Shown one piece after another: positions 1,150-20,658 of a stretch of 64,000 nucleotides of DNA. Source of the DNA: Escherichia phage ECOP18. Position numbers and translations under genes: made by a program. Location of the stretch: sequence record NC_105825.1; one strand, given 5' to 3'. Every line of letters begins with the position of its first letter. Within the stretch, counting starts at the first letter, position 1. The notes below the pieces were generated by a model. That model was not told where the DNA came from, ran no database searches, and saw nothing but the letters and a program-made list of their open reading frames with translations.

Positions 1150-1529
1150 GCTAATCTTTCCTCGAACTCTTTACTCTGCTTTTTAGCAATTAATGTTACC
1201 AATCCAGGCTTTGCAGCTATAATATCTTGGCGACTAAGAGCTTTATCTAACTGCTTAATCTTTTTGTCTAGATCTGCTTGCGAAATATTATTCATTGTGA
1301 AATACTGATTCATTCTAGTCTCACGAAGTTCACTTTCAGCTTTCACCTTATTAAGGGAAGCCTCTAGAGAAGAAATCTTTTTAGTAGCTACCGCAAGATC
1401 TCCCGCTAAAGTCTCCACTTTATCTACTAAGTGATAAGCACCGAATCCGATGCCTATCGCTAGACCTGCTCCCAGGATATACCACTTACCGTGCCATATT
1501 CCTGAAAGAAGTTTTTGTATCAAATCCAT
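1080..1529 (-). CDS. possible i-spanin (N-terminal TM anchor, coiled coil)
   Basis: N-terminal hydrophobic segment WYILGAGLAIGIGFGAY then charged helical region; overlaps lipoprotein gene. Confidence 0.4.
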   Translation of the reverse strand: MDLIQKLLSGIWHGKWYILGAGLAIGIGFGAYHLVDKVETLAGDLAVATKKISSLEASLNKVKAESELRETRMNQYFTMNNISQADLDKKIKQLDKALSRQDIIAAKPGLVTLIAKKQSKEFEERLACLTGNLEYCSQPQSQSQAVQKK

Positions 1530-4386: not shown

Positions 4387-4734
4387 TTAGTCATAGCACC
4401 ACCATAACCCACGCTTACGCATGTCATGATCGCGATTATAATCATAATTTTCTGGATCTTTCATCACGCGGTGGAGTTCTTGACGATTCCCTTGACGAAC
4501 CATTTTATTAGAATGCCACTTAACATTCTTACTAATAGAATTCCAGTTATAACCATCCTTTTTCTCATTACGAATGGTTGCTTCCTTCATTTCTTTCTTG
4601 ATGTCGTCCCAGGATTTGGCATAAATAACACGAATCCAGTAGCCATTTTCTTTGAAGAAAGAATATTCTTGAGAAAAGTGTTCTTTAGACTTCCACCACT
4701 GATCACCAGATTGTTTACGATAAGTACGGCTCAT
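4387..4734 (-). CDS. hypothetical protein
   Basis: 115-aa ORF. Confidence 0.5.
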   Translation of the reverse strand: MSRTYRKQSGDQWWKSKEHFSQEYSFFKENGYWIRVIYAKSWDDIKKEMKEATIRNEKKDGYNWNSISKNVKWHSNKMVRQGNRQELHRVMKDPENYDYNRDHDMRKRGLWWCYD

Positions 4735-4805
4735 ATTACCTCCATTAAGTCTTTTAAATTAACCTAATGTGGATGAATTTTATTATACATAGATTATTTA
4801 CCTAT

Positions 4806-4844
4806 ATACAGAAAAACCCCAGACTACTTATTCAATAGCTGGGG
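4806..4844 (-). terminator. rho-independent terminator
   Basis: Hairpin CCCCAG/CTGGGG, T-run (TTTTTCTG) on minus strand. Confidence 0.55.
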
Positions 4845-4855
4845 TTTGTTATTAA

Positions 4856-5170
4856 TTACAGATCGGGGCGTTCATCTTCGAAACAGCCTGAGCTGATTCC
4901 TTCTCCGAATCCTACAAAGCCATCAAATTCATCATTTGAGATGCCCATAATCATCGCTTCCATTTTCCTGATCTCCGAGGTTTTCATGCCTGCTTTACTA
5001 TTCTTATAGTACTTGCGAGGGTTCCCGCACATCCAACAAGAACAGATGCAAGGAGTAGTAGTGATAATACCTAACCGCTTAGGGCTTTCTTCATGTGGAA
5101 AGACTGTCCAGTACTTCTTGCGGTTGTTCTTCACACGTTGCCGGTGATGGCGTCTTAATGCTCGATCCAC
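4856..5170 (-). CDS. hypothetical protein
   Basis: 104-aa ORF; terminator hairpin downstream. Confidence 0.5.
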   Translation of the reverse strand: MDRALRRHHRQRVKNNRKKYWTVFPHEESPKRLGIITTTPCICSCWMCGNPRKYYKNSKAGMKTSEIRKMEAMIMGISNDEFDGFVGFGEGISSGCFEDERPDL

Positions 5171-5251
5171 ACATTTCTCCTAAAACTTGGGAGATAAACG
5201 GAGTTTGCTCGACTACCTTACGTAGTTCGTAGAAACCGTACCCAAACCCCA

Positions 5252-5620
5252 TTACATCGCCTGAGTAAATGTACGACTAATAACATCGTTCTGCTGTTCA
5301 CGCGTCAGTGCGTTAAAACGTACAGCATAGCCAGAGACACGGATGGTCAACTGAGGATATTTTTCAGGATGTTTCTGCGCATCCAAAAGCTGATCACAGC
5401 TTAACACATTGACATTTAGGTGCTGACCACCTTCGATTTGAGGGGCGACTTCCACTTTGACTTCACGGAAGGCTTCGGGATCGAATTGTGGTGTGATACC
5501 TTCTAGATCTTCAACTAGAACTTTCTGTTTAAGTTCACCGTTGTCGGAGTATAGCTGAATAATCTGATTTTCATGAACAAGGTTAATTACGCCAGATTTA
5601 AGATTTTGATATGCTTTCAT
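5252..5620 (-). CDS. grcA: autonomous glycyl radical cofactor (GrcA/YfiD-like)
   Basis: C-terminal half nearly collinear with E. coli GrcA as recalled: [42 protein letters not shown]. Confidence 0.75.
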
Positions 5621-5662
5621 TAGATCTCCCCGATGTTAGAATTTGGCTCAGCTATTTATTCT

Positions 5663-5857
5663 TTATACTTTTCCATAGTATACGGAAACTGTCTTACCAG
5701 TTTGGTTCATGACATATGCTACTTCATCTTCTTTTAAAAAGATGGCTTGGTCTACTCCAACTATAGCCAATCTTTTATTTCTAGGATTAAAGCTTACACT
5801 TTTGCCTGTATGAATCTGTTCCCCATTCTTGGCTGACATTATTTTAATTGTTAACAT
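5663..5857 (-). CDS. hypothetical protein
   Basis: 64-aa ORF. Confidence 0.4.
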   Translation of the reverse strand: MLTIKIMSAKNGEQIHTGKSVSFNPRNKRLAIVGVDQAIFLKEDEVAYVMNQTGKTVSVYYGKV

Positions 5858-5904
5858 AGCTGCTCCTAAAGTTAGCTATCTCTAGCTCTTTTAATGGTAG
5901 TTAG

Positions 5905-5980
5905 TAGTGGATTTGAACCACTGTAGTCGCTCCGTATGAAGGAGGTGCATAACCACTCTGCCAACTAACTAGTTAATTCT
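5905..5980 (-). tRNA. tRNA-Met (anticodon CAT)
   Basis: Hand fold: CCA encoded, 7-bp acceptor, T-arm, anticodon loop TTCATAC. Confidence 0.7.
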
Positions 5981-6137
5981 TTATAGGTTAGATCTAGAAG
6001 ATCTTTCTTACTGATAAGTCCTTCTCTATATTGGTCAATAAACATATCTATTCTAGAGTTCTCTGAGACTTCTATATCAGAAAGTTCAGCAAATATTTTT
6101 GCAAGTTTATCAATATCTTCCATACATAACCTTAATT

Positions 6138-6214
6138 TGGTACTCCGGGAGGGATTTAAACCCCCGATCTCTCGGTTATCAGCCGAGTGCTTTAGATCGC
6201 TAAGCTACCGAAGC
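6138..6214 (-). tRNA. tRNA-Ile (GAT)
   Basis: Anticodon arm CTCGG/CCGAG with loop CTGATAA. Confidence 0.7.
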
Positions 6215-6215
6215 A

Positions 6216-6422
6216 TTAACATTTTACAGCAGAACGTTTGCCATTTCTAGGTGCACCTGGAAGTCGTGCACGTTCTGCCATTCTTCTCTTAATCTTTGAG
6301 ATATTTTCTAGTGTTTGTTCCTCCGGCTTAATACCTGAAACACTACACCACTGATTACCATCCCATGCGGTAATGATCATAACACCATTACTCATGATCT
6401 TTTCTGTAAAAGTAATCCTCAT
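6216..6422 (-). CDS. hypothetical protein
   Basis: Start trimmed to ATG overlapping upstream stop (TAATG). Confidence 0.4.
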   Translation of the reverse strand: MRITFTEKIMSNGVMIITAWDGNQWCSVSGIKPEEQTLENISKIKRRMAERARLPGAPRNGKRSAVKC

Positions 6423-6715
6423 TATAGCAACTCGTCTAAGCAAGAGGTATATTTAAGTTTACCATCTTTATCTACTTTGATTTCGACTTCCGCTCGTGGT
6501 ACTTGATGAACTACACCATGAATCATCTTATAGCGAATGCCTTTAGCTGGTTCATGCTCTTTTGGAAATACTTGCTTAACCGTTACTACCTTAAAACCCT
6601 CACGCGGTGTTAACACTACTACTTGATCACCTTCTTTGATCTTCCAAGAGCCAGGAAATTCATAGGTATAGCGTTGACCACCAGTTTGGAACACAACAGA
6701 AAGATAACGTTTCAT
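6422..6715 (-). CDS. hypothetical protein
   Basis: 97-aa ORF behind consensus early promoter. Confidence 0.5.
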   Translation of the reverse strand: MKRYLSVVFQTGGQRYTYEFPGSWKIKEGDQVVVLTPREGFKVVTVKQVFPKEHEPAKGIRYKMIHGVVHQVPRAEVEIKVDKDGKLKYTSCLDELL

Positions 6716-6745
6716 TTGGCTTCCCTCTCATTAATTTATATAAAT

Positions 6746-6774
6746 ATTATAACAATAAATAAGAGAGAAAGCAA
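6746..6774 (-). promoter_or_regulatory. sigma70-type early promoter (TTGCTT-N17-TATAAT)
   Basis: Same architecture upstream of gene 6422-6715. Confidence 0.6.
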
Positions 6775-6782
6775 ATGAATTT

Positions 6783-6950
6783 TTAATAAAGTTTAGTCAC
6801 TTCATAAACTATACTACGAGATTCTTTATTACGTTCTATTAAATTAGAATATGCTTTTTCAGCTTCATTTTTAGTATTAAAGTCTATAACGTGGGAGGTA
6901 TTCGCTCTATTTGATTGACTATACCAGATAACTACTAATAATTTAAACAT
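6783..6950 (-). CDS. hypothetical protein
   Basis: ORF trimmed to internal Met so it does not overlap tRNA at 6965. Confidence 0.35.
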   Translation of the reverse strand: MFKLLVVIWYSQSNRANTSHVIDFNTKNEAEKAYSNLIERNKESRSIVYEVTKLY

Positions 6951-6964
6951 AATAGTCCTTAAGT

Positions 6965-7051
6965 TGGTGCTGGGCACAGGATTCGAACCTGTAACGGGAT
7001 TACTCCTCCTGATTACAAATCAGGTGCATTCAACCATTCTGCCGACCCAGC
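6965..7051 (-). tRNA. long-variable-arm tRNA, anticodon reads TGT
   Basis: Perfect T-arm and anticodon stem CCTGA/TCAGG; 15-nt variable region; 87 nt. Confidence 0.5.
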
Positions 7052-7216
7052 AGAACCCGTTATTTCAACGGGATTTCTTTTTCAATAATAGGAGACTTAT
7101 CAGTCATAACCGCCATTGCCATTTGTTGTAGAAATTCAAAGGTGAAGGCTACACGTTCTTCACCAATCTCTACTTCTACACGTTTCTTTTGTTTATCGAT
7201 CTTGACTTTTAGGTTA

Positions 7217-7468
7217 TCAGCCATTAGAGAGTACAGTACTGGTAGTTGGCAATACTACAGATGAAGCAACAGTGTTTAAATGCTTTCTCCAGTCTAGGTT
7301 AAATTGTTTTCGAAACTCTTCATAAGGTTCTTCTGGATAAAAGCTAAAACCTCCTTTCTCATCATTCAGGATAACAGAGCCGTCAGTTTGTTCGTATGCT
7401 CGGTATGTTTCTCCAATAACAATAACTCGTTTTTCGGTACTTTTATTACGAAACTCAAAAACGTGCAT
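7217..7468 (-). CDS. hypothetical protein
   Basis: 83-aa ORF between tRNA genes. Confidence 0.45.
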   Translation of the reverse strand: MHVFEFRNKSTEKRVIVIGETYRAYEQTDGSVILNDEKGGFSFYPEEPYEEFRKQFNLDWRKHLNTVASSVVLPTTSTVLSNG

Positions 7469-7484
7469 AATGTTTCCTTAAAGT

Positions 7485-7560
7485 TGGAGCGGCTAGAGGG
7501 AATCGAACCCTACTCAGCGAGGCTTGGAAGGCCTGCGGCACAACCCGTGTGCTTAACCGC
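7485..7560 (-). tRNA. tRNA-Gly (TCC)
   Basis: Anticodon loop CTTCCAA. Confidence 0.65.
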
Positions 7561-7568
7561 TTATTGTT

Positions 7569-7644
7569 TGGCTGGAGAAGGAGGAATCGAACCTACCATT
7601 AACGGAGTCAAAGGCCGTTGTGCTAACCGTTACACTACTCTCCA
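7569..7644 (-). tRNA. tRNA-Gln (TTG)
   Basis: Anticodon loop CTTTGAC. Confidence 0.6.
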
Positions 7645-7650
7645 ATTATT

Positions 7651-7726
7651 TGGCTGGGATGCCACGGATCGAACGTGGAACCTTCGGAGTCAGAGGCCGA
7701 CGATCTGCCAATTGATCTACATCCCA
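7651..7726 (-). tRNA. tRNA-Gln (CTG)
   Basis: Perfect T-stem and acceptor stem; anticodon loop CTCTGAC. Confidence 0.65.
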
Positions 7727-12956: not shown

Positions 12957-13057
12957 ATGTAATCAGTTTATTAGTTGATACATATTATAGCCTAGTGAAA
13001 ATCCTACTACTAGTCCCACAAACCAACCAATATAATAATCTTTTAGTTTCACAGGTA

Positions 13058-13243
13058 TTATCCTCGTTCAATATCTAGGGAAACACCGCAGTTAGGATTA
13101 ATACCTGTACCGTTGCAATTTGAACAAATCCAGATATTGCAAAAAGTATCTCCTGCTTCTGCATCAGAACTTTCACCAATTCCCCTACACTCAGGGCAGG
13201 CACATTCTTCTAGCTCTTGCTTGAGTTCTTGAAACTTGGACAT
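13058..13243 (-). CDS. DnaJ-type zinc-finger mini-protein
   Basis: Two CxxCxGxG repeats (CPECRGIG, CSNCNGTG). Confidence 0.5.
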   Translation of the reverse strand: MSKFQELKQELEECACPECRGIGESSDAEAGDTFCNIWICSNCNGTGINPNCGVSLDIERG

Positions 13244-13252
13244 ATAGTCTCC

Positions 13253-13441
13253 TTAGTCAATTACTTTTGAGGCTTCAAGGGAGTCGATATAGTATACGTT
13301 TTCTACCATAATCATATAATCTGCCACTTTATCCATAGCTTGGGCCTCAGAGGTAGCTCTGGCTAACCTATATCCTTTTTTATATTCATCCGGGTATTCT
13401 CTATCTTGAATAAATACAACATAAACTATGTATAATTCCAC
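13253..13441 (-). CDS. hypothetical protein
   Basis: Track ORF 13253-13588 runs through two tRNA genes; trimmed to in-frame GTG with AGGGGA RBS. Confidence 0.35.
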   Translation of the reverse strand: MELYIVYVVFIQDREYPDEYKKGYRLARATSEAQAMDKVADYMIMVENVYYIDSLEASKVID

Positions 13442-13461
13442 TTGTAATCCCCTAATTAAGT

Positions 13462-13539
13462 TGGTGGCTCCCCGAGGATTCGAACCTACGTACCTTCCGG
13501 TTATGAGCCGGGTGCTCATACCATATGAGCTTGAGAACC
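13462..13539 (-). tRNA. tRNA-Met/Ile2 (CAT)
   Basis: Anticodon arm CCGG/CCGG with loop CTCATAA. Confidence 0.55.
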
Positions 13540-13545
13540 AGAATT

Positions 13546-13634
13546 TGGCGGAAGAAGTGGGAATCGAACCCACAAGGCTATATTTCAAACCGACAGATTA
13601 GCAATCTGCTGCAATACCGTTATGCTATTCTTCC
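13546..13634 (-). tRNA. tRNA-Ser (GCT)
   Basis: Type II, 89 nt; perfect acceptor and T stems; loop TTGCTAA. Confidence 0.75.
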
Positions 13635-13655
13635 GAATTTATAAGATATATTATA

Positions 13656-14174
13656 TTAGAAATTTAGCTTCATAGCAAGAAAATTTTTCAAGTTTTCGGT
13701 AGACATCTCATCCACATCTACGGGAGAAACAAAGCCGTTTAATTTTCTAGCAAATTTTTCACCCGCAGGATCGTTGTCTCCGACAGCTACCAATTTAAAA
13801 GGTAATAATTTCAGTTGCTTTAATAACGCTTTTCCTGGAGAAGAACCTAACATTGCCAGGGCTGGATAACCAGCGTTATGTAGCGCAACTGCCTTAAATA
13901 CAGATTCAGCGATCAATACTACTTTTTCATCTCCATTGAGAGTTTCTAGTCCCCATACACACTGGGTAGTAGAATAAGTAAAATATTTAGCTTCAAAGGG
14001 ACACTTACTATGACCTTTTGGAGCAGAAGGATTATACGTCTGATAGCCTCGCAACATCCCGGAGAAGTCATACAACGGGACTGTTAGCCATCCTTCCGGA
14101 CTTAACCAGCAATGATATTTATCTGTATCAAATCCTCTGGATAAGAGGTGCTGTGTTAGCTCATCAACATTCAT
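13656..14174 (-). CDS. Toprim-domain protein
   Basis: Conserved Glu (VVLIAES) and DxD (VAVGDNDPAG); start set to MNVDELT downstream of the promoter. Confidence 0.5.
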   Translation of the reverse strand: MNVDELTQHLLSRGFDTDKYHCWLSPEGWLTVPLYDFSGMLRGYQTYNPSAPKGHSKCPFEAKYFTYSTTQCVWGLETLNGDEKVVLIAESVFKAVALHNAGYPALAMLGSSPGKALLKQLKLLPFKLVAVGDNDPAGEKFARKLNGFVSPVDVDEMSTENLKNFLAMKLNF

Positions 14175-14349
14175 ATTTGGTTCCTCTCTCAAATTTATAG
14201 ATATATTATACAGAGAATTTAGCATTCAAGCAATCAAATTTTTTAACTTTTTAGAGGAAAATCATAGGGCACTTAAGGGTAGCAGATAAGTGGGGAGGAC
14301 CAAAATTTGTGACCCCACTAAAAATCCGGGGGCAATTTTTAAAGACCCC

Positions 14350-14378
14350 TTGACATTTTCGCTGGGGTAGTGTAAAGT
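14350..14378 (+). promoter_or_regulatory. sigma70-like promoter for rightward cassette
   Basis: Consensus -35 TTGACA, 17-nt spacer, TG then TAAAGT. Confidence 0.5.
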
Positions 14379-14440
14379 ATATGTTATGGATGAGTGATCA
14401 AAGAGACACACATTTTCTATATACTAGGAGGTGTCAAAAT

Positions 14441-15430
14441 ATGACAGAAGAAGTAGCTAAGAGTCCTGAGACCGTCGCTAGCGTTGCAGCAGAACTGCAC
14501 CGTCACGAGGAATCAGATAAGAAAAAGTGGGAGAAGGTCAGAGTCTACGAAGAAAAACATCGTGAACACGATGATGAAGAAGAAGATGACGATGATGAAC
14601 ATTGTCATAAATATGGAAAACATAAAATGCAAGAACCAGTAAACGTATTCACTAGTGGCTTCCCTGGCCTACTGGGTGGTTACCCAGCAAACGCAGGTGC
14701 TTTCGGTGGTGAAGGTATGGGACTATTCGGAGCTATCCTAATCGGTGCTCTATTAACCGGCGGATTCGGTGGTTTCGGTGGATTCGGTGGACGTGGTGTA
14801 GTTGGTGAAGGTACCGCAGTTGATGCAGTACTTCAGAACCAAGATACCGCTAGTATTCTAGCAGCTATCAACACTACTCGTACAGAGGCTAACCAGGGTA
14901 CTGGAGCTGTTTTAAGCGCAGTTAACAATGGTTTTAGCCAGACAACCCAAAACCAGAGCCGTGATACTCAGTCTGTACTAACTACGATCTACGGTACAGG
15001 TGCTAATCTGTCTAATCAGATCTGCCAGGAAACTCGCAACGTTATTCAGGGTCAGTTCGATCTTTCTCGCCAGATTGATCAATCTTTCGCAGCTAACCAG
15101 ATAGCTCGTGCACAAGATAAGTTTGATTCTGCACAGATCGCTTTCCAGCAGACTTTACAAACTAATAACCAGTTTGCCGCTGTTCAGGCTCAGATGTGTG
15201 CTAACCAGAACTCTCTGGAACGTCAGATCGCTGAATGTTGCTGTGAACTTCAGACTGCGATCGCTGGTGTAACTACTGCGCGTATCCAGGATGAGTTAGA
15301 CGCATGTCGCCTACGTGAAGCAATCGCTGCGGGTAGCGGTGCTAACGGTCAGGTAATTAATCAAATCGCTTTAAGTCTTGGTGCTATCACTCAGACTCTG
15401 GCTGGTCTGCAGGCTAAACTGCCGGCTTAA
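14441..15430 (+). CDS. low-complexity protein (acidic/His-rich N-terminus, Gly-rich hydrophobic segment, Q/N/A/T-rich C-terminal region)
   Basis: AGGAGGTG RBS before ATG at 14441; GGFGGFGGFGG segment; host-like codon usage; own promoter. Confidence 0.6.
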   Translation: MTEEVAKSPETVASVAAELHRHEESDKKKWEKVRVYEEKHREHDDEEEDDDDEHCHKYGKHKMQEPVNVFTSGFPGLLGGYPANAGAFGGEGMGLFGAILIGALLTGGFGGFGGFGGRGVVGEGTAVDAVLQNQDTASILAAINTTRTEANQGTGAVLSAVNNGFSQTTQNQSRDTQSVLTTIYGTGANLSNQICQETRNVIQGQFDLSRQIDQSFAANQIARAQDKFDSAQIAFQQTLQTNNQFAAVQAQMCANQNSLERQIAECCCELQTAIAGVTTARIQDELDACRLREAIAAGSGANGQVINQIALSLGAITQTLAGLQAKLPA

Positions 15431-15451
15431 TATTAAGGGGAGGAGCCCCTT

Positions 15452-15868
15452 ATGAGTAAATATGGTTTTGTAAATAACGGACTTAATCAAAGTATGGGCT
15501 CCCAGCAGCCCATTCCGGGTCTGGATAACCCCTACTTACAACAGTTGCAACAGCGTTTAGCAGAAGCGCAACAGATGCAGCAACAACTCCAGCAAAACCC
15601 TGGAAGTGTGAGTCCTATGCAAATGATGCAGCAAATGAGCGGGCAGTCGCAAATGCCTCAACAAATGCAGCAACAGGTGCCTCAGCAGCAAGTTCAGCAA
15701 CAAACCCAACAACCGCAGGTTTCTGCGGAAGGACAGGCAGTACTAGCCCTTTTCGAAGACTTCGCAAAGACAGAGGATGGGAAACAGCTTGTATCACTTA
15801 TGGGTAAGTTTAATAGCTTCTGCCAAAGCCAAGTTGCAAAAGCTCAAAATGGGGGTAGTAACTCCTAA
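15452..15868 (+). CDS. Gln/Met-rich low-complexity protein
   Basis: GGGGAGG RBS; runs of QQ/MQQ. Confidence 0.55.
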   Translation: MSKYGFVNNGLNQSMGSQQPIPGLDNPYLQQLQQRLAEAQQMQQQLQQNPGSVSPMQMMQQMSGQSQMPQQMQQQVPQQQVQQQTQQPQVSAEGQAVLALFEDFAKTEDGKQLVSLMGKFNSFCQSQVAKAQNGGSNS

Positions 15869-15877
15869 GGAGGAAAT

Positions 15878-16072
15878 ATGTGTTGCAGAAAATCTGTTTC
15901 GTGCTGCCCAGTGCCTGTAGCACGTTGTTGCTCTCCAGCAATGTTTACGCAAATACCGGCGTTCAATCCCTTTGCCTTTAAACCTACTCTTATCCTGCCC
16001 CCTAGAGTAGATTTTCAGTCAAGATTGGCCTCCCGTATGGGTGGTTGCTGTACACCGAGAGTATGGTTCTAA
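15878..16072 (+). CDS. Cys-doublet small protein
   Basis: AAGGAGG RBS; CC doublets; followed by terminator. Confidence 0.5.
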   Translation: MCCRKSVSCCPVPVARCCSPAMFTQIPAFNPFAFKPTLILPPRVDFQSRLASRMGGCCTPRVWF

Positions 16073-16082
16073 ACCAAAAACA

Positions 16083-16118
16083 AAAGCCCCTGCCGAAAGG
16101 TAAGGGGCTTTTTCTTTT
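16083..16118 (+). terminator. rho-independent terminator ending rightward cassette
   Basis: Hairpin AGCCCC/GGGGCT then TTTTTCTTTTG. Confidence 0.65.
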
Positions 16119-16124
16119 GCCTTA

Positions 16125-16165
16125 AATACAGAAAAGCCCGCGCTCTCGTAGGAAACGCGGGCTTG
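16125..16165 (-). terminator. rho-independent terminator after SPFH gene
   Basis: Hairpin AGCCCGCG/CGCGGGCT then T-run on minus strand. Confidence 0.6.
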
Positions 16166-16187
16166 GTTCGAAGATTACGTGTAACTA

Positions 16188-17135
16188 TTACTTGTTACGC
16201 ATATCCATGATCATTTGACCATCGTAGCCAGTACCTACCACAGTCTGAGGTACACCACCTTGATACTTCTGAGCACGGATCATTTCAACTTCCAGTTGTT
16301 TCCAACGAATCATTTCAGGAGTAATGGTACGTTGCAATGCGGCGTTAGCTTCAGCTTCTTTCTTAGCTGCGTACAGTTTAGCATCTGCGTCACGTTCATT
16401 AGCAATAGCTTGGTTGTTACGAGCTTCACGATCTGCTTCTGCTTGTTTAACTTTTTGCTGTGCTTCCTGTTCAACGCGAGCAAGTTCAGCTTTCGCAGCA
16501 TTAACTTGCTCTTCACGAACTTTGGTATTCTGTACCTGTTCCATGATTACTGGCGGCAAGGTAATATCCTGAAGGAATACCTGCTTAACTGTGTAACCAT
16601 ATGGGCGCGCATACTCTTCAACTTCCTGTTGAATTGCAGTTTGCAATTGAGCCTGAATTTTAGCATCAAATAAATCTTGTGCTTTAGGTACAGACTTACC
16701 AAACTCACGAATAGTAGACAGTAATTTTTCAGTTACATACTTGTCTAGTGCCTGATCCTGAGTACCTGCGTTAATACGGTTAATCGGTGCTTTAGAACCA
16801 TCAAACTGCAACATAACAGTCAGGTCAACAGTGGATTTAAACTTATCCTGGCTAGGAACCTGAAGTTTATCTAATTTTACAGCAATATCTTTTGTACTAA
16901 AAGTATCGAAAGATGCAAACGGGTTTACAAGATGGAAGCCCGGCAATACTGGATTAGGGTCTACTTTACCCAGGAATGTTTGGGTTTTAACCGTACCATC
17001 AGAAACAATAGTATATGAATTAAAAGCTAGGATTAAACCTGCTAAACCAACTACAGCACCAATACCCCAACGTTTAATAGTACGAATTACTTTCTGCTCA
17101 GAAGTCAGTTCTTTCATATTTTTAGTAGCAAACAT
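16188..17135 (-). CDS. SPFH/band-7 (stomatin/prohibitin/HflC-like) membrane protein
   Basis: N-terminal TM, SPFH-like core, Ala/Gln/Glu-rich coiled-coil C-terminus. Confidence 0.55.
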   Translation of the reverse strand: MFATKNMKELTSEQKVIRTIKRWGIGAVVGLAGLILAFNSYTIVSDGTVKTQTFLGKVDPNPVLPGFHLVNPFASFDTFSTKDIAVKLDKLQVPSQDKFKSTVDLTVMLQFDGSKAPINRINAGTQDQALDKYVTEKLLSTIREFGKSVPKAQDLFDAKIQAQLQTAIQQEVEEYARPYGYTVKQVFLQDITLPPVIMEQVQNTKVREEQVNAAKAELARVEQEAQQKVKQAEADREARNNQAIANERDADAKLYAAKKEAEANAALQRTITPEMIRWKQLEVEMIRAQKYQGGVPQTVVGTGYDGQMIMDMRNK

Positions 17136-17169
17136 ATATTTCCTTTGTTTTAGTTACAGTTAATAAAAT

Positions 17170-17244
17170 TGGCCGAGGTGACAGGATTCGAACCTGCATA
17201 AAGGAATTTAGAAGACTCCTGCCTCTCCCTTAGACTACACCCCG
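17170..17244 (-). tRNA. tRNA-Arg (TCT)
   Basis: Anticodon loop CTTCTAA. Confidence 0.65.
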
Positions 17245-18041
17245 TTTAAGTATTTTTAAGAACTCTCGTAAAAACTCTTAAAAATACAGACGATACCGGG
17301 AGAGTCATAAGTCTCACTCATTAAGTATTTCAAGACAAAATACAGTAACGTCTATTATTTTCCAGTTTAAGTCAGGGTGACTTAGTGGTTATGTCCTGCG
17401 GTATATTGAGGACTCGGTTAGGCTTGGGGTCATGACTTCCCACCTTTTGCTGCTACTCAACAGGAGTTATCGCGAATTACCTGTGCTATTGTGCACCATT
17501 AGTGACATCTCTCATGTCAGCATTTCCCACTTTGTGGATAGCTTGAAAAACTACTCCGATATGGAGAAAGAACTTCACTATCCTAGAATACCTTCTAAAG
17601 TTCTTCTTTAGCCTGGACATAGTTAAATCGTAATAAAACTATTCAGCAGACTGGTTGGTTAGTCTGGAACCAACTACCGCGTGGTTTAGGCAGTGCGCAA
17701 CTAACCTCGGAAGCTTTTATGTTAAAAGCATCAGTTATCCAGTTCTTACCGACCGTAGGATTCGAACCTACATCTTCCACCAGTTACGGCTTGATAATAC
17801 CAATTATACTAGGACGGCAGTGTTACTACATAAGTGATTTCCACACCCCACTATTTATAAATCAGAGAAGAGTTTAGGGGAGAGGTTTCAGACGCCTCAT
17901 TTTACACGTTCTAGCCACTAACCGGGATTGCCGCCCCCTGTGTACTAGTTTTACAACTAACCCACCGACTCTATTCAATGCGCTCCGGTTGGGATTCTGC
18001 ACTCAGCGTAATCGGCTCGCTGTTCCCTAATTTATGAATAT

Positions 18042-18070
18042 ATTATACAGAATTTATAAGCATTTAGCAA
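18042..18070 (-). promoter_or_regulatory. sigma70-type early promoter reading into ORF-free region and tRNA-Arg
   Basis: TTGCTA-N17-TATAAT; downstream ~800 nt has no credible ORF. Confidence 0.5.
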
Positions 18071-18078
18071 ATGAATTT

Positions 18079-18513
18079 TTAGAAAAATTCACTAGCAATC
18101 AAAGCAGTTGTTTTACCGTCATAACGTCCGGGAAATTCTGCCTTAATAGTTTTCATTAATAGAGCTTTGGTAATACCTGGGTTTAATTTAACCAGTTCTG
18201 CAAAATACTCACGAATCTGAACCTCAGTCAGTTGACTTGGCTGATACTCTTGCAGCATGGAATAAAGCAGTTGCTCATAGTCTACATCAGTAGGAACTTC
18301 CATACCAACTTTAATAGCGCGTTGTTTTGCATTTTCTAGAGCCTTAATCTGAGCTTTCAGATAGGCTACGAACTCGGTTCGAGTAACAATGTCTTTATCA
18401 ATACGTTGCAGATCACCAATCATGGTCTGAAGATTAAGTGCCCGTTCCTTATCACCGTGAGTACGTGCTAGACTAAGTAGTGCACGAAGGGTCATTAGAA
18501 TATTTTCACCCAT
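18079..18513 (-). CDS. hypothetical protein
   Basis: 144-aa ORF. Confidence 0.5.
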   Translation of the reverse strand: MGENILMTLRALLSLARTHGDKERALNLQTMIGDLQRIDKDIVTRTEFVAYLKAQIKALENAKQRAIKVGMEVPTDVDYEQLLYSMLQEYQPSQLTEVQIREYFAELVKLNPGITKALLMKTIKAEFPGRYDGKTTALIASEFF

Positions 18514-18751: not shown

Positions 18752-19219
18752 TTAAGTTTTAGTGACAACAGGTTTATAGAATGTATGTCCCTTAATCTTA
18801 GTTGTTTTCTTAAACTTCTTTGTCCAGTAAGGTTTATCTTTACCACTATGGAAGTATAGTGCTCCATATGTAGGATCTTGTGGTAAATCAACGTAGTATA
18901 TCACTCTAGCTAAATTCTTAGCGGTTTGCCAAGCCTCATCAGTTTTATCAACTTTTGGTCTCTTAGATACCCAAGAGAACTGGTTAGACTGATATACTAC
19001 TTTACAGTAGGAATCTGGGAATTTACCGGAGTTTACACGGTTTTTAGTAACATGTGCAATCGCCGTCATTCCCTTTATGCCCTCACCACGACTTTCGAAA
19101 TAGATATTTTTAGCAATGCAATCTATTTCTTTTGCATCGTGCGATGCCTGACTACTAAAGCTGAAGGTAAGGGCAGCTACTAAAAGCAAAGCTGCCTTCA
19201 TTCTTTTTACTCCTGCCAA
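18752..19219 (-). CDS. secreted cell-wall hydrolase (SleB/Hydrolase_2-like)
   Basis: Signal peptide; family resemblance recalled from motif NIYFESRGE. Confidence 0.5.
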   Translation of the reverse strand: MAGVKRMKAALLLVAALTFSFSSQASHDAKEIDCIAKNIYFESRGEGIKGMTAIAHVTKNRVNSGKFPDSYCKVVYQSNQFSWVSKRPKVDKTDEAWQTAKNLARVIYYVDLPQDPTYGALYFHSGKDKPYWTKKFKKTTKIKGHTFYKPVVTKT

Positions 19220-19524: not shown

Positions 19525-19966
19525 AATAGCCTCGTTTCATCAATTTAAAAATGTATTATACAGATAACTTAGTAAATTAGCAAATACATTTTTAAATTGT
19601 GAAACTAGTAAACCGATAAACAGCCTAGAGGCGCCACAGGCCATATCTTATGAGCCATGTACCTTTGATCTAGGGTTTGAATCATCAACGAATACTTTGC
19701 ATCTTTTAGCTTTAGAAGTTTAGAAGTTTGAGTTCTTTAAACTTTTCAGCTTTCATACTTAAATGTTGATCTTTGAAGTTGTGTCGGTAATATCAACGAC
19801 GCTTTGTTCTTACGTGTCAGCTTAAAAGGCTGGTGTAATAAACATAATCTCCAATAGATTATACTTTATAGTATGGTCAGCGGTCCTATTTAACCTCGTA
19901 TTTCAACCGCTGCTGCGAGGTAAGATGCTTGGGCTTTCGTCTACCGATTTACTAGCTTTTAAATTA

Positions 19967-20605
19967 TTACTCTACTTCAATGAAGGTAGAGGCGTTAGAC
20001 TCGGACAGAACAAAGTCAACATTTGTTGCAAAGTCCTGATATTCCTCGTCATGCTGCTTAATCAGCTTTTCCAGTTCCAGCGGATCAATCAAGAATGGAG
20101 TATTCTTGAGTTCCAGCAGGTTGAGCTGCATTTTAACTTCATCTTCGGAAGTTTTCTTATCGCGGGTAGCCATGCTATCCTGCAAACGCTCATATTTAGC
20201 ATCAAACTGTGCTTTCTGCGTATTAAACTTAACCGTAGCGGCATGGAACTGCTTACGCATGTTAGCCAGCAGTTGGGCTTTAAGTTCCATAGAACGCTTA
20301 GCTTCAATTGCTTCCGCAACAGTCATCTTACGAGAGCCAATCTCAACGATTGTTTCCGCATTGCTTTTAATCAGAGCAGCTTTGATACGATCACGCTGGG
20401 ACATCATATCCAGCAGAGACTGGAAATCAGTCTTAATACGAGTAGACAGATCAGCTACTTCGATTGCAGCGCCAACTACAACTTGGTTTTTATCCTTACC
20501 TTCACCAACAGCGATCAGAAGCTGCTGTTCAGTAGCTTTACGGATTTTAGCTTCCAGAGATTTGATAGTTGCCAGAGCGCGAGTTTTAGAAATACGAGTA
20601 GTCAT
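19967..20605 (-). CDS. hypothetical protein
   Basis: 212-aa ORF, helical composition. Confidence 0.5.
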   Translation of the reverse strand: MTTRISKTRALATIKSLEAKIRKATEQQLLIAVGEGKDKNQVVVGAAIEVADLSTRIKTDFQSLLDMMSQRDRIKAALIKSNAETIVEIGSRKMTVAEAIEAKRSMELKAQLLANMRKQFHAATVKFNTQKAQFDAKYERLQDSMATRDKKTSEDEVKMQLNLLELKNTPFLIDPLELEKLIKQHDEEYQDFATNVDFVLSESNASTFIEVE

Positions 20606-20658
20606 TATTTGCTTCCTTATATGAAGTTTGAGATTTGAATTTGTTTAAAGTTGGTCTA

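What the first reader, a model, noticed from the sequence alone, without database searches (positions are those of the whole stretch)
14350..16120. Rightward three-gene low-complexity cassette inside the leftward tRNA/early region
Three rightward ORFs with strong RBSs sit between a TTGACA-N17 promoter and a terminator, opposite to all neighbours. Products are compositionally extreme: an acidic/His-rich N-terminus, a GGFGGFGGFGG hydrophobic segment and a Q/N/A/T-rich C-terminal region; a poly-Q/M protein; and a 64-aa CC-doublet peptide. Codon usage is GC-richer and host-like, unlike the AT-rich surrounding genes. I cannot place any of the three in a known family; roles in exclusion, envelope modification, condensate formation or toxin/immunity are guesses.
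Basis: partly seen in the sequence, partly recalled or inferred. Interest (0 to 1): 0.85.

Follow-up and report, generated by a model that had tools for sequence, protein, structure and literature searches.

The report
Dispensable three-gene cysteine-motif operon in T5-like phage
This is a real, self-contained three-gene operon of a T5-like phage (the long-annotated but uncharacterised T5.077-T5.079). The phage can live without it, and its main protein belongs to a large, undescribed family of phage proteins with one hydrophobic segment and an invariant Cys-Cys-Cys motif.

Summary
Three + strand genes lie at 14441-15430 (A), 15452-15868 (B) and 15878-16072 (C). Each has a strong ribosome-binding site. 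They sit between a conserved TTGACA-17-TAAAGT promoter and a strong bidirectional terminator, among leftward tRNA and early genes.

They are not new as ORFs. They are the orthologues of T5.077, T5.078 and T5.079, annotated as hypothetical in GenBank together with promoter P12 and the terminator.

The cassette behaves like a moron-type accessory unit:
- it is GC-richer than its flanks;
- about half of T5-like genomes lack it, and Bas33 has a clean deletion;
- a T5 knock-down screen scored all three genes "Not Fit";
- the same A-B-C set occurs in the unrelated Pseudomonas phage KPP23.

No characterised family matches any of the three proteins.

New here: A belongs to a wide family (PHROGs 8119, 16490 and 9288) in phages of Clostridium, crAss-like phages and uncultured gut phages. 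Members share a Gly-rich hydrophobic segment, Q/N-rich helices and an invariant CCC motif.

The "host-like codon usage" claim holds only for A. The poly-Q/M stretch of B is a variable linker.

Function remains unknown. My best guess, at low confidence, is a thiol-linked, membrane-anchored accessory complex that acts on the infected cell's envelope.

The parts
14350..14378 (+). Sigma-70-type promoter (-35 TTGACA at 14350-14355, 17-nt spacer, -10 TAAAGT at 14373-14378). It corresponds to the annotated T5 promoter P12.
   Evidence: Consensus scan, 10 of 12 matches. Annotated as P12 in NC_005859 and AJ604531. Both hexamers are conserved in distant T5-like contigs L005 and L006. In Bas33, which has lost the genes, the -10 is kept and the -35 reads TTGATT.
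14379..14440 (+). 5' leader carrying the Shine-Dalgarno AGGAGG (14426-14431).
   Evidence: Sequence. The leader up to about 14415 is retained in the Bas33 deletion variant.
14441..15430 (+). Gene A (329 aa), orthologue of T5.077. It has an acidic N-domain with a conserved 'ELxxHExxD' helix, an 'EPVNVF' motif, a Gly-rich hydrophobic segment (residues about 93-118), and a Q/N/A/T-rich helical domain with invariant C266-C267-C268.
   Evidence: PHROG 8119, E = 3.8e-204. dN/dS 0.14-0.17. Profile-profile link to the gut-phage family: probability 99.1%, E = 2e-18.
15452..15868 (+). Gene B (138 aa), orthologue of T5.078. It has a conserved helix (residues 27-48), a variable Q/M-rich linker, and a conserved C-terminal helical hairpin (92-133) with invariant C124.
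   Evidence: AlphaFold2 pLDDT 84-93 over the hairpin. PHROG 7894. dN/dS 0.15-0.27 in most pairs.
15878..16072 (+). Gene C (64 aa), orthologue of T5.079. It is a Pro-rich peptide that starts Met-Cys-Cys, carries four CC doublets, and has no signal peptide or transmembrane segment.
   Evidence: Found by tblastn in 220 phage records at 80% identity or more. An equivalent MCC...CC ORF follows gene B in L005, L006 and KPP23.
16082..16118 (.). Bidirectional intrinsic terminator (an A-tract, a GC-rich hairpin, then a U-tract) that ends the operon.
   Evidence: Fold: dG -22.9 kcal/mol, z = -4.3. Annotated as an 'efficient bidirectional rho-independent transcription terminator' in T5 and as 'ter1' in phage 5. 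It is deleted together with the genes in Bas33.

Best explanation
The cassette is a moron-like accessory transcription unit with its own sigma-70 promoter, three translationally close-packed genes and its own terminator. T5-like phages carry it or lose it as a block.

Its products most likely form one complex at the cytoplasmic membrane:
- Protein A is held in the membrane by its Gly-rich hydrophobic segment and oligomerises through long amphipathic helices.
- The invariant CCC motif of A, the invariant Cys of B and the CC doublets of C link the parts, either by disulfides or by a shared metal-thiolate centre.
- B (a helical hairpin) and C (a Pro/Cys-rich peptide) are small partner subunits. 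C replaces the Pro/Cys-rich C-terminal tail that is fused to A in most family members.

Shown: the operon anatomy, co-inheritance of A, B and C, dispensability, family membership and the conserved motifs.

Inferred: membrane insertion, complex formation and thiol linkage.

Guess, about 1 in 4: the complex changes the infected cell's membrane or envelope to the phage's advantage in particular hosts. The most likely effect is exclusion of superinfecting phage or protection against an envelope-level threat. It is not a step of the core lytic cycle.
For: Operon anatomy:
- Promoter, ribosome-binding sites and terminator are present and annotated in T5 and phage 5.

Accessory and mobile character:
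- GC is 46-48% against about 38% in the flanks.
- Tequintavirus Bas33 carries a clean deletion running from the ribosome-binding site through the terminator.
- Gene A occurs in 221 phage records. The neighbouring SPFH gene, at 80% identity or more, occurs in about 438, and the Toprim gene in 270.
- T5.077, T5.078 and T5.079 were all scored 'Not Fit' in the CRISPRi-ART T5 screen (PMC11879866 supplementary files 8 and 16).
- The same A-B-C trio, bracketed by terminator-like hairpins, occurs in Pseudomonas phage KPP23, a 62.8-kb phage not classified in Demerecviridae.

Real genes:
- dN/dS is 0.14-0.27 for A and for most B comparisons.
- The ORF of C is retained in four divergent lineages.

Membrane anchor:
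- The hydrophobic core scores KD15 = 2.07 and KD19 = 1.72, and is conserved across the family.

Cysteine-centred function:
- CCC is invariant in alignments A1, A2 and A4.
- 114 of the 147 best representatives retrieved from a library of 1.84 billion protein representatives contain CCC.
- C124 of B is invariant.
- The MCC start of C is conserved although the rest of the peptide has diverged.

C as an equivalent of the fused tail:
- Among 34 distinct family proteins, 26 carry a Cys-rich tail. None of these is followed by an MCC-type peptide ORF; two have an unrelated Cys-rich ORF downstream that I take to be spurious.
- All four representatives from phages of Gram-negative hosts lack the tail and do have a separate peptide.

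Placement in temperate gut phages:
- The gene lies between endolysin and integrase, or between tail-fibre and lysis genes, where accessory genes usually sit.
Against: - No experiment or homology ties the proteins to exclusion or to any other function.
- Topology is unresolved. The flanks of the hydrophobic segment are almost uncharged. The long charged N-domain argues that the N-terminus is cytoplasmic. The many cysteines in Clostridium-phage homologues, and the absence of signal peptides in B and C, argue that the C-terminus is cytoplasmic.
- The AlphaFold2 model of A is poor (pLDDT 47).
- Equivalence of C with the fused tail rests on composition and complementary distribution, not on alignable homology. 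Gene B lies between A and C, which a simple gene fission would not predict.
- The 4-versus-26 pattern reflects at most two or three independent lineages.
- I found no expression data for a phage that carries the cassette. The one T5-like RNA-seq data set I could read is from Bas33, which lacks it.
- Known exclusion proteins are usually single genes.
Confidence: 0.3

Rival explanations
1. Lysis-associated membrane effector. A acts like a fusion protein or spanin-type helical protein (or as a holin regulator) that destabilises or fuses membranes late in infection, with B and C as regulators.
For: - A has a Gly/Phe-rich hydrophobic segment followed by long Q/N-rich helices and a Cys motif.
- The gut-phage profile gives a series of sub-threshold hits to influenza HA2 (E 0.4-0.8) and to coronavirus S2 heptad-repeat fragments.
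- crAss-like homologues are labelled 'spike protein/glycoprotein' and lie close to a putative pinholin, a protein I read as i-spanin-like from its sequence, and a cell-wall enzyme.
- In L037 the gene lies about 2 kb upstream of a probable holin and amidase, as I read them from the sequences. In L003 it lies upstream of a VanY-like peptidase.
- Loss of spanin-type functions is often silent in shaken culture (own knowledge), so the 'Not Fit' result does not exclude this reading.
Against: - The phage already has a canonical Rz-like spanin at 1080-1529 (-) (phrog_739, E = 2.6e-37). T5-like phages are reported to have a holin, an endolysin and two-component spanins elsewhere (PMC11664485).
- The family occurs in Clostridium perfringens phages, which have no outer membrane to breach.
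- C has no lipoprotein signal.
- Hydropathy periodicity is 3.6-3.69 rather than the heptad value of 3.5, and is weak in T5-like proteins.
- The matches to fusion proteins are not significant.
- The promoter is an early-type sigma-70 promoter, and the cassette lies far from the lysis genes.
Confidence: 0.15
2. Metal- or redox-handling module. Vicinal thiols (CCC, CC doublets, metallothionein-like tails), the His/Asp/Glu-rich N-terminus and the Met-rich linker bind soft or borderline metals (Cu, Zn) or sense redox state, buffering the infected cell or supplying a phage process.
For: - Cysteines are the only strictly conserved residues shared by all three proteins.
- Family tails such as GCGCNTGCGC and ...DSCCA resemble metallothionein motifs (the resemblance is from my own knowledge).
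- Epseptimavirus-type A proteins carry runs such as HYHHHHHEHYEEDDEDDEE.
- In L037 the gene two positions downstream of A encodes a rubrerythrin/ferritin-like protein (Pfam PF02915, E = 0.0013, below the curated cut-off).
- The many cysteines in homologues from phages of anaerobic Clostridium fit a reduced, cytoplasmic, metal-binding state.
Against: - The His-rich and Met-rich stretches are not conserved. They are absent from L005, L006, KPP23 and distant B orthologues.
- C is rich in aromatic residues and is only 12.5% Cys, unlike metallothioneins.
- No CxxC or other established metal-site pattern is present, and no metal-protein family matches.
- There is no obvious reason for a membrane anchor.
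Confidence: 0.15
3. Counter-defence module, or a target that triggers a defence. The cassette neutralises or evades a host immune or abortive-infection system found only in some strains. This would explain its patchy distribution and its dispensability in laboratory E. coli K-12.
For: - The cassette is an accessory unit with an early-type promoter, present in only about half of T5-like genomes, shared with the unrelated phage KPP23, and dispensable.
- It lies in the tRNA region. In CRISPRi-ART supplementary file 8 the neighbouring Toprim gene T5.076 is annotated as subverting retron-mediated defence.
Against: - There is no similarity to any characterised anti-defence protein, and PADLOC finds nothing. 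PADLOC holds defence models rather than anti-defence models, so this is weak evidence.
- A three-protein membrane complex is atypical of known anti-defence factors, which are mostly small soluble single proteins (own knowledge).
Confidence: 0.15
4. Condensate-forming low-complexity proteins (one of the first reader's guesses). The Q/M-rich, Gly-rich and acidic regions drive phase separation inside the infected cell.
For: Extreme composition: B is 28% Gln, A carries GGFGGFGGFGG, and A has an acidic tract. AlphaFold2 predicts disorder for the Q/M-rich linker (residues 65-87) and for residues 42-144 of A, which include the acidic tract.
Against: - The low-complexity parts are the least conserved. 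The Q/M linker shrinks from about 45 to about 10 residues in distant orthologues, and the acidic/His tract varies in length or is absent.
- Selection acts on the helices and the Cys motifs instead.
- The Gly-rich stretch is part of a conserved hydrophobic, membrane-type segment.
Confidence: 0.05
5. Toxin/immunity or bacteriocin-like system. A Gly-rich hydrophobic, membrane-damaging protein is paired with small antidote proteins.
For: Gly-rich hydrophobic segments occur in class II microcins and bacteriocins (own knowledge). The N-termini of gut-phage homologues ('SLSDIAAVTG') loosely recall double-glycine leader peptides (resemblance only).
Against: - No processing or export genes are present.
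- The proteins (190-330 aa) are far larger than such peptides.
- No family match was found.
- The T5-like N-terminus bears no resemblance to a leader peptide.
Confidence: 0.05

Closest known systems
T5.077, T5.078 and T5.079 of Escherichia phage T5 (NC_005859), and ORF 327aa, 138aa and 64aa of Salmonella phage 5 (AJ604531)
   Same: They are direct orthologues in the same position, between the Toprim gene T5.076 and the SPFH gene T5.080, with the same annotated promoter P12 and bidirectional terminator. Identity to T5 is about 80% for A and 92% for C; B differs from its T5 orthologue at only a few positions in the alignment.
   Different: Nothing essential differs. All are annotated 'hypothetical protein'. 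No paper in the searchable library names them. CRISPRi-ART lists them as unknown function and 'Not Fit'.
Morons: accessory promoter-gene-terminator units described in lambdoid phages HK97 and HK022 (Juhala et al. 2000; own knowledge)
   Same: The cassette has its own promoter and terminator, and a base composition unlike its flanks. It is present or absent between otherwise collinear genomes, dispensable for lytic growth, and shared with an unrelated phage.
   Different: It carries three genes rather than one. It sits in a strictly lytic phage, so prophage expression and benefit to a lysogen do not apply.
Uncharacterised phage proteins of PHROGs 16490 and 9288, including CPD1_039 of Clostridium phage CPD1 and the 'spike protein/glycoprotein' KNV31_gp063 of crAss-like phage cr1_1
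   Same: They share the architecture of A (a short or long N-tail, a Gly/aromatic-rich hydrophobic segment, Q/N-rich helices) and the invariant motif Q(L/I)A(N/S/E)CCC(E/T). hhalign gives probability 99.1%, E = 2e-18.
   Different: Most carry a fused Pro-rich and Cys-rich C-terminal tail and lack the T5-type N-domain. Their neighbours differ from B and C: Q/P/Y-rich, Q/M-rich, BclA_C-like and rubrerythrin-like proteins.
Two-component spanins (lambda Rz/Rz1 type)
   Same: Both include a protein with one hydrophobic segment and a long helical domain with functionally important cysteines, encoded next to a small Pro-rich, Cys-bearing partner.
   Different: - C has no lipoprotein signal.
- The cassette is not in the lysis cluster.
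- A canonical Rz-like spanin exists at 1080-1529.
- The family also occurs in phages of Gram-positive hosts.
- There is no sequence similarity to spanins.
Class I viral fusion subunits (influenza HA2, coronavirus S2)
   Same: The order of elements is similar: a Gly/Phe-rich hydrophobic peptide (A even shares the hexapeptide GLFGAI with the HA2 N-terminus; own knowledge), then Q/N-rich long helices, a Cys motif, and in most family members a Cys-rich tail.
   Different: - Only sub-threshold profile hits were found (E 0.4 or above).
- There is no second (C-terminal) transmembrane anchor.
- Periodicity is not heptad.
- I regard this as a resemblance of pattern and composition, not homology.
Membrane-anchored superinfection-exclusion proteins (T4 Imm and Sp, lactococcal Sie2009, HK97 gp15; own knowledge)
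   Same: They are accessory, dispensable, membrane-anchored proteins, expressed early or from the prophage. In temperate phages they sit next to lysogeny or lysis modules.
   Different: There is no sequence relationship. The known examples are single proteins, and none has the cysteine motifs. The phenotype was not tested here.

Membership tests
Moron-type accessory transcription unit | Own promoter upstream of the cargo genes | tested here: met
   TTGACA-17-TAAAGT at 14350-14378. It is conserved in distant T5-like contigs and annotated as P12. Promoter activity itself is not testable with these tools.
Moron-type accessory transcription unit | Own factor-independent terminator downstream | tested here: met
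   Hairpin plus U-tract at 16082-16118, z = -4.3. Annotated as an efficient bidirectional terminator.
Moron-type accessory transcription unit | Base composition different from the flanks | tested here: met
   GC is 0.46-0.48 against about 0.35-0.41 in the flanks. Most of the difference comes from amino-acid composition.
Moron-type accessory transcription unit | Present or absent between otherwise collinear genomes, and dispensable | tested here: met
   Bas33 has a clean deletion. Gene A is in 221 records against about 438 with the SPFH neighbour. CRISPRi-ART scores all three genes 'Not Fit'.
CCC-motif phage protein superfamily (PHROGs 8119, 16490 and 9288; uncharacterised) | One Gly-rich hydrophobic segment N-terminal to a Q/N-rich helical region | tested here: met
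   Core KD15 = 2.07 at residues 95-109. The same feature is found in 27 of the 29 sequences of alignments A1 and A4; in the other two the scan picked a C-terminal segment instead.
CCC-motif phage protein superfamily (PHROGs 8119, 16490 and 9288; uncharacterised) | Motif Q(L/I)A(E/N/S)CCC(E/T) inside a helix | tested here: met
   C266-C268 are invariant. hhalign probability 99.1%. 114 of 147 remote representatives contain CCC.
Two-component spanin (i-spanin plus o-spanin) | The o-spanin is an outer-membrane lipoprotein with a signal peptide and a lipobox Cys | tested here: not met
   C starts MCCRKSVSCC, with no hydrophobic signal region (maximum KD19 = 0.97) and no lipobox.
Two-component spanin (i-spanin plus o-spanin) | Encoded in or next to the holin-endolysin cluster, and the phage's only outer-membrane disruptor | tested here: not met
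   An Rz-like spanin lies at 1080-1529 (-). Spanins next to the holin and endolysin genes are reported for the T5-like phage OSYSP.
Two-component spanin (i-spanin plus o-spanin) | Restricted to phages of diderm hosts | tested here: not met
   Homologues of A occur in Clostridium perfringens phages CPD1 and XP41-N3.
Class I viral fusion glycoprotein (the 'spike protein/glycoprotein' label on crAss-like homologues) | Significant sequence or structural similarity to a fusion subunit | tested here: not met
   The best PDB profile hits are HA2 at E = 0.4-0.8 and S2 fragments at E = 2.6-5.5. The T5-like profile gives none.
Class I viral fusion glycoprotein (the 'spike protein/glycoprotein' label on crAss-like homologues) | Heptad-repeat (3.5-residue) coiled coils and a C-terminal transmembrane anchor | tested here: not met
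   Periodicity is 3.6-3.69, with z only 0.3 in the window protein. In most family members the strongest hydrophobic segment is the N-proximal one; a second segment was not searched for systematically.
Superinfection-exclusion membrane proteins | Expression blocks infection or DNA entry by a second phage | not testable with these tools
   This needs a plating or DNA-entry assay. Only the circumstantial features (membrane anchor, accessory status, early-type promoter) are met.
Metallothionein-like Cys-rich metal binders | High Cys content in CxC, CC or CxxC arrays, with few aromatic residues | tested here: inconclusive
   C is 12.5% Cys in CC doublets but has 6 Phe and 1 Trp. The family tails (GCGCNTGCGC) look more metallothionein-like. 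Metal binding itself is not testable here.
Known anti-phage defence proteins (PADLOC-DB) | Match to a defence-system model | tested here: not met
   No hits at E up to 1 for A, B, C or the SPFH neighbour.

The most novel reading that the evidence does not exclude
The A-B-C trio, together with the wider CCC-motif family, represents an undescribed kind of phage system: a thiol- or metal-stapled effector, built like a fusion protein, that remodels membranes. Phages of Firmicutes, Bacteroidota and Proteobacteria would use it to alter the host cytoplasmic membrane for exclusion, for controlled permeabilisation or for membrane fusion and fission. The conserved N-terminal Cys-Cys of peptide C and the CCC motif would provide a chemistry not known from any characterised phage protein.
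Probability: 0.2. Interest if true: 0.8.

Novelty: new variant of a known kind. Interest (0 to 1): 0.5.

Why it matters
T5 is a model phage, yet this conserved, probably well-expressed operon still has no function after two decades of annotation.

Three findings turn it from a list of odd compositions into a concrete, testable problem:
- It is an optional, mobile module.
- Its main protein belongs to a family of at least about 200 sequence clusters, spread over phages of Gram-positive, Bacteroides and Gram-negative hosts.
- Cysteine motifs (CCC, the MCC start, CC doublets), not the eye-catching low-complexity tracts, are what selection preserves.

A natural deletion variant (Bas33) and CRISPRi tools already exist for experiments.

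If the family proves to be a new membrane-acting or exclusion system, it would matter for gut-phage ecology and for phage engineering. If it proves to be an ordinary exclusion or lysis accessory, it still removes three 'hypothetical' genes from a reference genome.

Tried and rejected
1. Family and structure searches for A, B and C found nothing characterised. Pfam, NCBIfam and PADLOC gave no meaningful hits; the weak RIFIN hits (E = 0.008-0.013) reflect composition. PDB sequence searches were run for A and C only, also without a meaningful hit.
2. AlphaFold2 of A with 17 sequences gave pLDDT 47, mostly long helices. The model was not good enough for a fold search, so none was run.
3. AlphaFold2 of B gave a confident C-terminal helical hairpin, but Foldseek against the PDB returned no match.
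4. I tested whether B is homologous to the Q/M-rich proteins of about 77 aa, or to the Q/P/Y-rich proteins, encoded upstream of A homologues in gut phages. hhalign probabilities were 0.3% and 1%. The idea is rejected; the likeness is compositional only.
5. I looked for expression evidence in the Bas33 RNA-seq data set (PMC13250531). I first took bas33_0082 for gene C, then found that Bas33 lacks the cassette altogether. The lead was discarded, but it yielded the natural-deletion evidence.
6. The spanin reading is disfavoured: a canonical Rz-like spanin lies elsewhere, there is no lipobox, and the family has Gram-positive phage members.
7. Canonical heptad coiled coil is not supported.
8. Topology from the positive-inside rule is uninformative, because both flanks of the hydrophobic segment are nearly uncharged.
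9. RNA-level explanations: an Rfam scan of 13000-18500 found only tRNAs and weak terminator-like hits. Folding the gene C region gave z = -1.86, not convincing.
10. 'Foreign, host-derived codon usage' is rejected as a general statement.
11. Literature searches for T5.077-079, for the PHROG numbers, and for T5 time-course transcriptomics found nothing on these genes. The crAss 'spike protein' literature hit concerned unrelated tail spikes.


Full report
**What the window is.** The window comes from a T5-like phage (Tequintavirus). The 1.85-kb region is 99.8% identical to Escherichia phages T5_ev212, SUT_E520 and EC148, and megablast matches it in 373 phage records. Twenty-one tRNA genes, all on the - strand, surround the region.

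**Check of the observation.**
- The three + strand ORFs are real: A at 14441-15430 (329 aa), B at 15452-15868 (138 aa) and C at 15878-16072 (64 aa).
- The longest mechanical ORF for A starts at 14381. That ATG lies at or before the likely transcription start and has no ribosome-binding site. The start at 14441 follows AGGAGG (14426-14431) and is the one annotated in T5.
- B and C follow GGAGG (15439-15443) and AAGGAGG (15867-15873).
- A sigma-70-type site, TTGACA-17-TAAAGT, lies at 14350-14378. Such a match alone is weak evidence: five sites were found in the 4-kb scan against 6.5 expected by chance. However, both hexamers are conserved in metagenomic T5-like contigs whose A protein is only about 45% identical.
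- The terminator hairpin at 16082-16118 folds at -22.9 kcal/mol (z = -4.3, 0 of 200 shuffles as good). Its A-tract and U-tract arrangement explains bidirectional action.
- A second hairpin at 16134-16164 serves the convergent - strand gene.
- The compositional description is accurate.

**The codon-usage claim.** This claim is only partly right. GC is 0.46-0.48 in the three genes against about 0.35-0.41 in the immediate flanks. GC3 of A is ordinary (0.35), so much of its excess comes from Ala, Gly and Gln codons. I computed an E. coli codon adaptation index with the Sharp & Li weights, recalled from memory because the Biopython table was not installed. It is high for A (0.456, 6th of 53 ORFs, similar to the SPFH neighbour at 0.461) but below the median for B (0.243) and C (0.222).

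**Not new as ORFs.** GenBank annotates exactly this unit in T5 and in Salmonella phage 5.
- In T5 (NC_005859) it comprises promoter P12, T5.077, T5.078, T5.079 and an 'efficient bidirectional rho-independent transcription terminator', followed by a major nick site.
- In Salmonella phage 5 (AJ604531) it comprises ORF 327aa, 138aa and 64aa with ribosome-binding sites, P12 and ter1.
- All products are labelled hypothetical.
- No paper in the searchable library mentions T5.077-079 or the PHROG numbers.
- The CRISPRi-ART study re-annotated T5 in 2025 and still lists the three as 'unknown function' (PHROG 8119, PHROG 7894, singleton). It scores all three 'Not Fit', meaning knock-down has no fitness cost (PMC11879866, supplementary files 8 and 16).

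**An optional, mobile module.**
- In the Tequintavirus HildyBeyeler (Bas33, MZ501074) the SPFH gene (bas33_0084) is followed after 287 bp by the Toprim gene (bas33_0085). Alignment shows that the promoter region (with the -35 changed to TTGATT) and most of the leader are kept. Everything from just upstream of the ribosome-binding site through terminator 1 is gone. This is a clean natural deletion.
- By tblastn, gene A is present in 221 phage records and gene C in 220. The flanking SPFH gene occurs at 80% identity or more in about 438 records, and the Toprim gene in 270. About half of T5-like genomes in the collection therefore lack the cassette.
- Distant T5-like contigs keep A, B and C in the same order, opposite in direction to their neighbours.
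- Pseudomonas phage KPP23 (62.8 kb, not classified in Demerecviridae) carries the same trio: A of 320 aa, B of 143 aa and C of 60 aa. Terminator-like hairpins bracket it. Its A protein is 60% identical to the window protein over the C-terminal half.
- Own promoter, own terminator, deviating composition, presence/absence polymorphism, dispensability and occurrence in an unrelated phage together are the defining features of a moron-type accessory unit (concept from Juhala et al. 2000; own knowledge).
- From memory, the classical heat-stable deletion mutants of T5 also map to this tRNA region. I did not check this.

**Are they genes?** Selection says yes for A and B: dN/dS is 0.14-0.17 for A and 0.15-0.27 for B in most comparisons. 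The SPFH neighbour, at 0.02-0.08, serves as a reference. C has few differences among close relatives (dN/dS 0.2-0.75). Its synonymous divergence is oddly low: 0.14-0.16, against 0.36-0.95 for A and B in the same genome pairs. I could not explain this; the RNA fold gives z = -1.86. The best evidence that C is coding is that an ORF of 60-69 aa persists downstream of B in four lineages that have otherwise diverged beyond alignment. In all four it starts with Met-Cys-Cys and contains further CC doublets.

**What is conserved.**
- In A the conserved parts are an N-terminal helix with 'ELxxHExxD', the motif 'EPVNVF(T)xG(F)PG', the Gly-rich hydrophobic segment, and much of the C-terminal 150 residues, with C266-C267-C268 invariant. 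The acidic/His tract varies in length and loses its histidines in distant members.
- In B a helix (Y-L/I-QQLQQRL-x-E/D-AQ) and the last 45 residues are nearly invariant, including C124. The Q/M-rich stretch is a length-variable linker and is almost absent in distant orthologues. AlphaFold2 models the C-terminal part as a helical hairpin (pLDDT 84-93) and the linker as disordered.
The cysteines are the common denominator of all three proteins.

**A much larger family.**
- A pattern and tblastn scan of IMG/VR with a profile of distant members returned 42 loci from contigs of 6.6-148 kb, too short or too long to be T5-like genomes of about 110 kb.
- They encode proteins of 173-311 aa. Most have a short acidic N-tail, a Trp/Gly/Phe-rich hydrophobic segment (for example GGWIWIIVLFLF...GWGGFGG) and Q/N-rich helices with the motif Q(L/I)A(N/S)CCC(E/T). 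Most also have a Pro-rich stretch and a Cys-rich extreme C-terminus (GCGCNTGCGC, NNCGCCC, GNGCC).
- Profile-profile comparison with the T5-like alignment gives probability 99.1%, E = 2e-18, over the 36 columns around CCC. PHROGs 16490 and 9288, which were weak hits for the window protein, are strong hits for these proteins.
- Members in public phage records include Clostridium perfringens phages CPD1 and XP41-N3, lemur and rodent gut viruses, human faecal phage contigs and several crAss-like phages. In the crAss-like phages the gene is labelled 'spike protein/glycoprotein'.
- A full HMMER scan of 1.84 billion protein representatives with the T5-like profile alone finds 197 clusters at E up to 1e-3. 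Of the 147 best representatives retrieved, 114 contain CCC.
- In gut phages the gene sits in a recurrent neighbourhood, read from the sequences:
  - a small HTH protein;
  - a Q/P/Y-rich protein with a beta domain;
  - a Q/M-rich protein of about 77 aa;
  - the CCC protein itself;
  - a BclA_C/C1q-like protein (Pfam PF18573, E = 1e-6, below the curated cut-off);
  - a rubrerythrin-like helical protein (E = 0.0013, also below cut-off).

  This block lies between tail-fibre and lysis genes, or between endolysin and integrase.
- B is not detectably homologous to the Q/M-rich or Q/P/Y-rich neighbours.

**Relation of peptide C to the fused tails.** Among 34 distinct family proteins, 26 end in a Cys-rich tail. 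None of these is followed by an MCC-type peptide ORF; two have an unrelated Cys-rich ORF downstream that I take to be spurious. All four representatives from phages of Gram-negative hosts (the window, L005, L006 and KPP23) end just where the Pro-rich tail would begin, and they encode a separate Pro/Cys-rich MCC peptide downstream. This complementary pattern suggests that C supplies in trans what the tail supplies in cis. The argument is weak because the lineages are few, the sequences are not alignable, and gene B lies between A and C. If it holds, it has a consequence for topology. C has no signal peptide, so the C-terminal domain of A would be cytoplasmic. The many cysteines in homologues from phages of anaerobic Clostridium fit this too. 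The long, highly charged and partly conserved N-domain of the T5-type proteins argues the opposite orientation. The flanks of the hydrophobic segment carry almost no charge. A re-entrant hairpin with both ends in the cytoplasm would reconcile the data. Topology remains open.

**What it is not.**
- It is not the phage's spanin. A canonical Rz-like spanin lies at 1080-1529 (-) (phrog_739, E = 2.6e-37). The T5-like phage OSYSP is described with a holin, endolysins and two-component spanins elsewhere (PMC11664485). C has no lipobox, and the family occurs in Gram-positive phages.
- It is not a demonstrable viral fusion protein. The gut-phage profile gives only sub-threshold hits to influenza HA2 (E 0.4-0.8) and coronavirus S2 fragments. 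The T5-like profile gives none. Periodicity is 3.6-3.69 rather than 3.5. These hits probably explain the GenBank label. The resemblance in the order of elements (Gly/Phe-rich hydrophobic peptide, Q/N-rich helices, Cys motif) is a lead for how the protein might work, not evidence of membership.
- It is not a known defence protein, and no Rfam element lies inside the cassette.

**Most likely mechanism.**
- Shown: the cassette is an optional early-type operon whose three products are inherited together.
- Inferred: A is membrane-inserted and oligomeric, and A, B and C form one assembly held together through their conserved cysteines, either by disulfides or by a metal-thiolate centre.
- Guessed: the assembly modifies the infected cell's membrane or envelope in a way that pays off only in some hosts or situations. 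The circumstantial profile fits exclusion of superinfecting phage or protection from an envelope-level threat best: membrane anchor, early-type promoter, dispensability, patchy distribution, and placement beside lysis or lysogeny modules in temperate relatives.
- I put this whole reading at about 0.3. The rivals are lysis accessory or fusogen (0.15), metal or redox module (0.15), counter-defence (0.15), condensate (0.05) and bacteriocin or toxin-immunity (0.05).

**Verdict.** The finding is real and correctly described, apart from the codon-usage claim. As an element it is already annotated and belongs to a familiar kind, a moron-like accessory cassette. Its cargo is unlike anything characterised. 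The cargo belongs to a broad, undescribed phage family defined by an invariant CCC motif, and that is the part worth following up. Interest is moderate at 0.5. It is a tractable known unknown in a model phage, with a natural deletion variant at hand, but it is dispensable and has no mechanistic handle yet.

Noticed in passing
window 15878-16072; L007 (KPP23) 6936-7118: Gene C is left unannotated in most GenBank T5-like records: 'none' appears under the tblastn match in most of the listed rows. In Pseudomonas phage KPP23 the annotated ORF072 (locus 6938-7132, GTG start) is in the wrong frame. The conserved MCC...CC peptide is at locus 6936-7118.
   Followed up: partly
window 15878-16072: Synonymous divergence of gene C (dS 0.14-0.16) is several-fold lower than that of genes A and B (0.36-0.95) in the same genome pairs. 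This suggests a nucleotide-level constraint or recent recombination. The RNA fold z-score is only -1.86.
   Followed up: partly
L013, L020, L037, L038, L050 (cr1_1), L051 (CPD1), around locus coordinates 4500-7700: Gut-phage relatives of gene A sit in a recurrent block of uncharacterised genes: a small HTH protein, a Q/P/Y-rich protein with a beta domain, a Q/M-rich protein of about 77 aa, the CCC protein, a BclA_C/C1q-like protein and a rubrerythrin-like protein. The composition of this block recalls spore-coat or exosporium proteins, yet it also occurs in crAss-like phages.
   Followed up: partly
window 16134-16164 (- strand): A second terminator hairpin serves the convergent SPFH gene. It contains GCGC at 16140-16143. 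T5 annotates a major single-strand interruption (nick consensus Pu-GCGC) at the equivalent place.
   Followed up: no
window 16188-17135 (- strand): The SPFH/Band-7 membrane protein (T5.080, annotated 'lipoprotein') has a high codon adaptation index (0.461). By tblastn it is present in 685 phage records, including Klebsiella, Aeromonas and Enterobacter phages. It is retained in Bas33, which lacks the cassette. Its function in phages is unknown.
   Followed up: partly
window 13465-13539 (-) and 17747-17818 (-): Rfam finds two further tRNA-model matches (40.3 and 35.5 bits, both above the gathering score) that ARAGORN did not report. The first corresponds by position to the tRNA annotated as tRNA-Ile2(CAU) in T5. 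The second lies in the region annotated as the stable RNA 'rnaX'.
   Followed up: no
window 13656-14225 (- strand): The Toprim/primase-like gene (T5.076 orthologue) lies next to the cassette. In CRISPRi-ART supplementary file 8 it is annotated as 'subverts retron-mediated defense' and scored 'Semi-Fit'. In Epseptimavirus Bas26 the left neighbour of the cassette is instead a nicotinamide-nucleotide adenylyltransferase gene.
   Followed up: no
window 19925-20638 (+ strand): This is another rightward ORF (237 aa) among leftward genes. It has the highest GC3 in the window (0.53), a low codon adaptation index (0.244) and no PHROG match at E up to 1e-5. It may be spurious or another inserted gene.
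   Followed up: no
window 1080-1529 (- strand) and 18752-19201 (- strand): An Rz-like spanin (phrog_739, E = 2.6e-37) and a second endolysin-like gene (phrog_938, E = 1.2e-29; T5.083 orthologue) lie far apart. The lysis-related genes of this phage are therefore scattered.
   Followed up: partly
window 43918-44685 (+ strand): This ORF (255 aa) has by far the highest E. coli codon adaptation index in the window (0.693) and a GC of 0.477, so it is presumably a very abundant early protein. I did not identify it.
   Followed up: no
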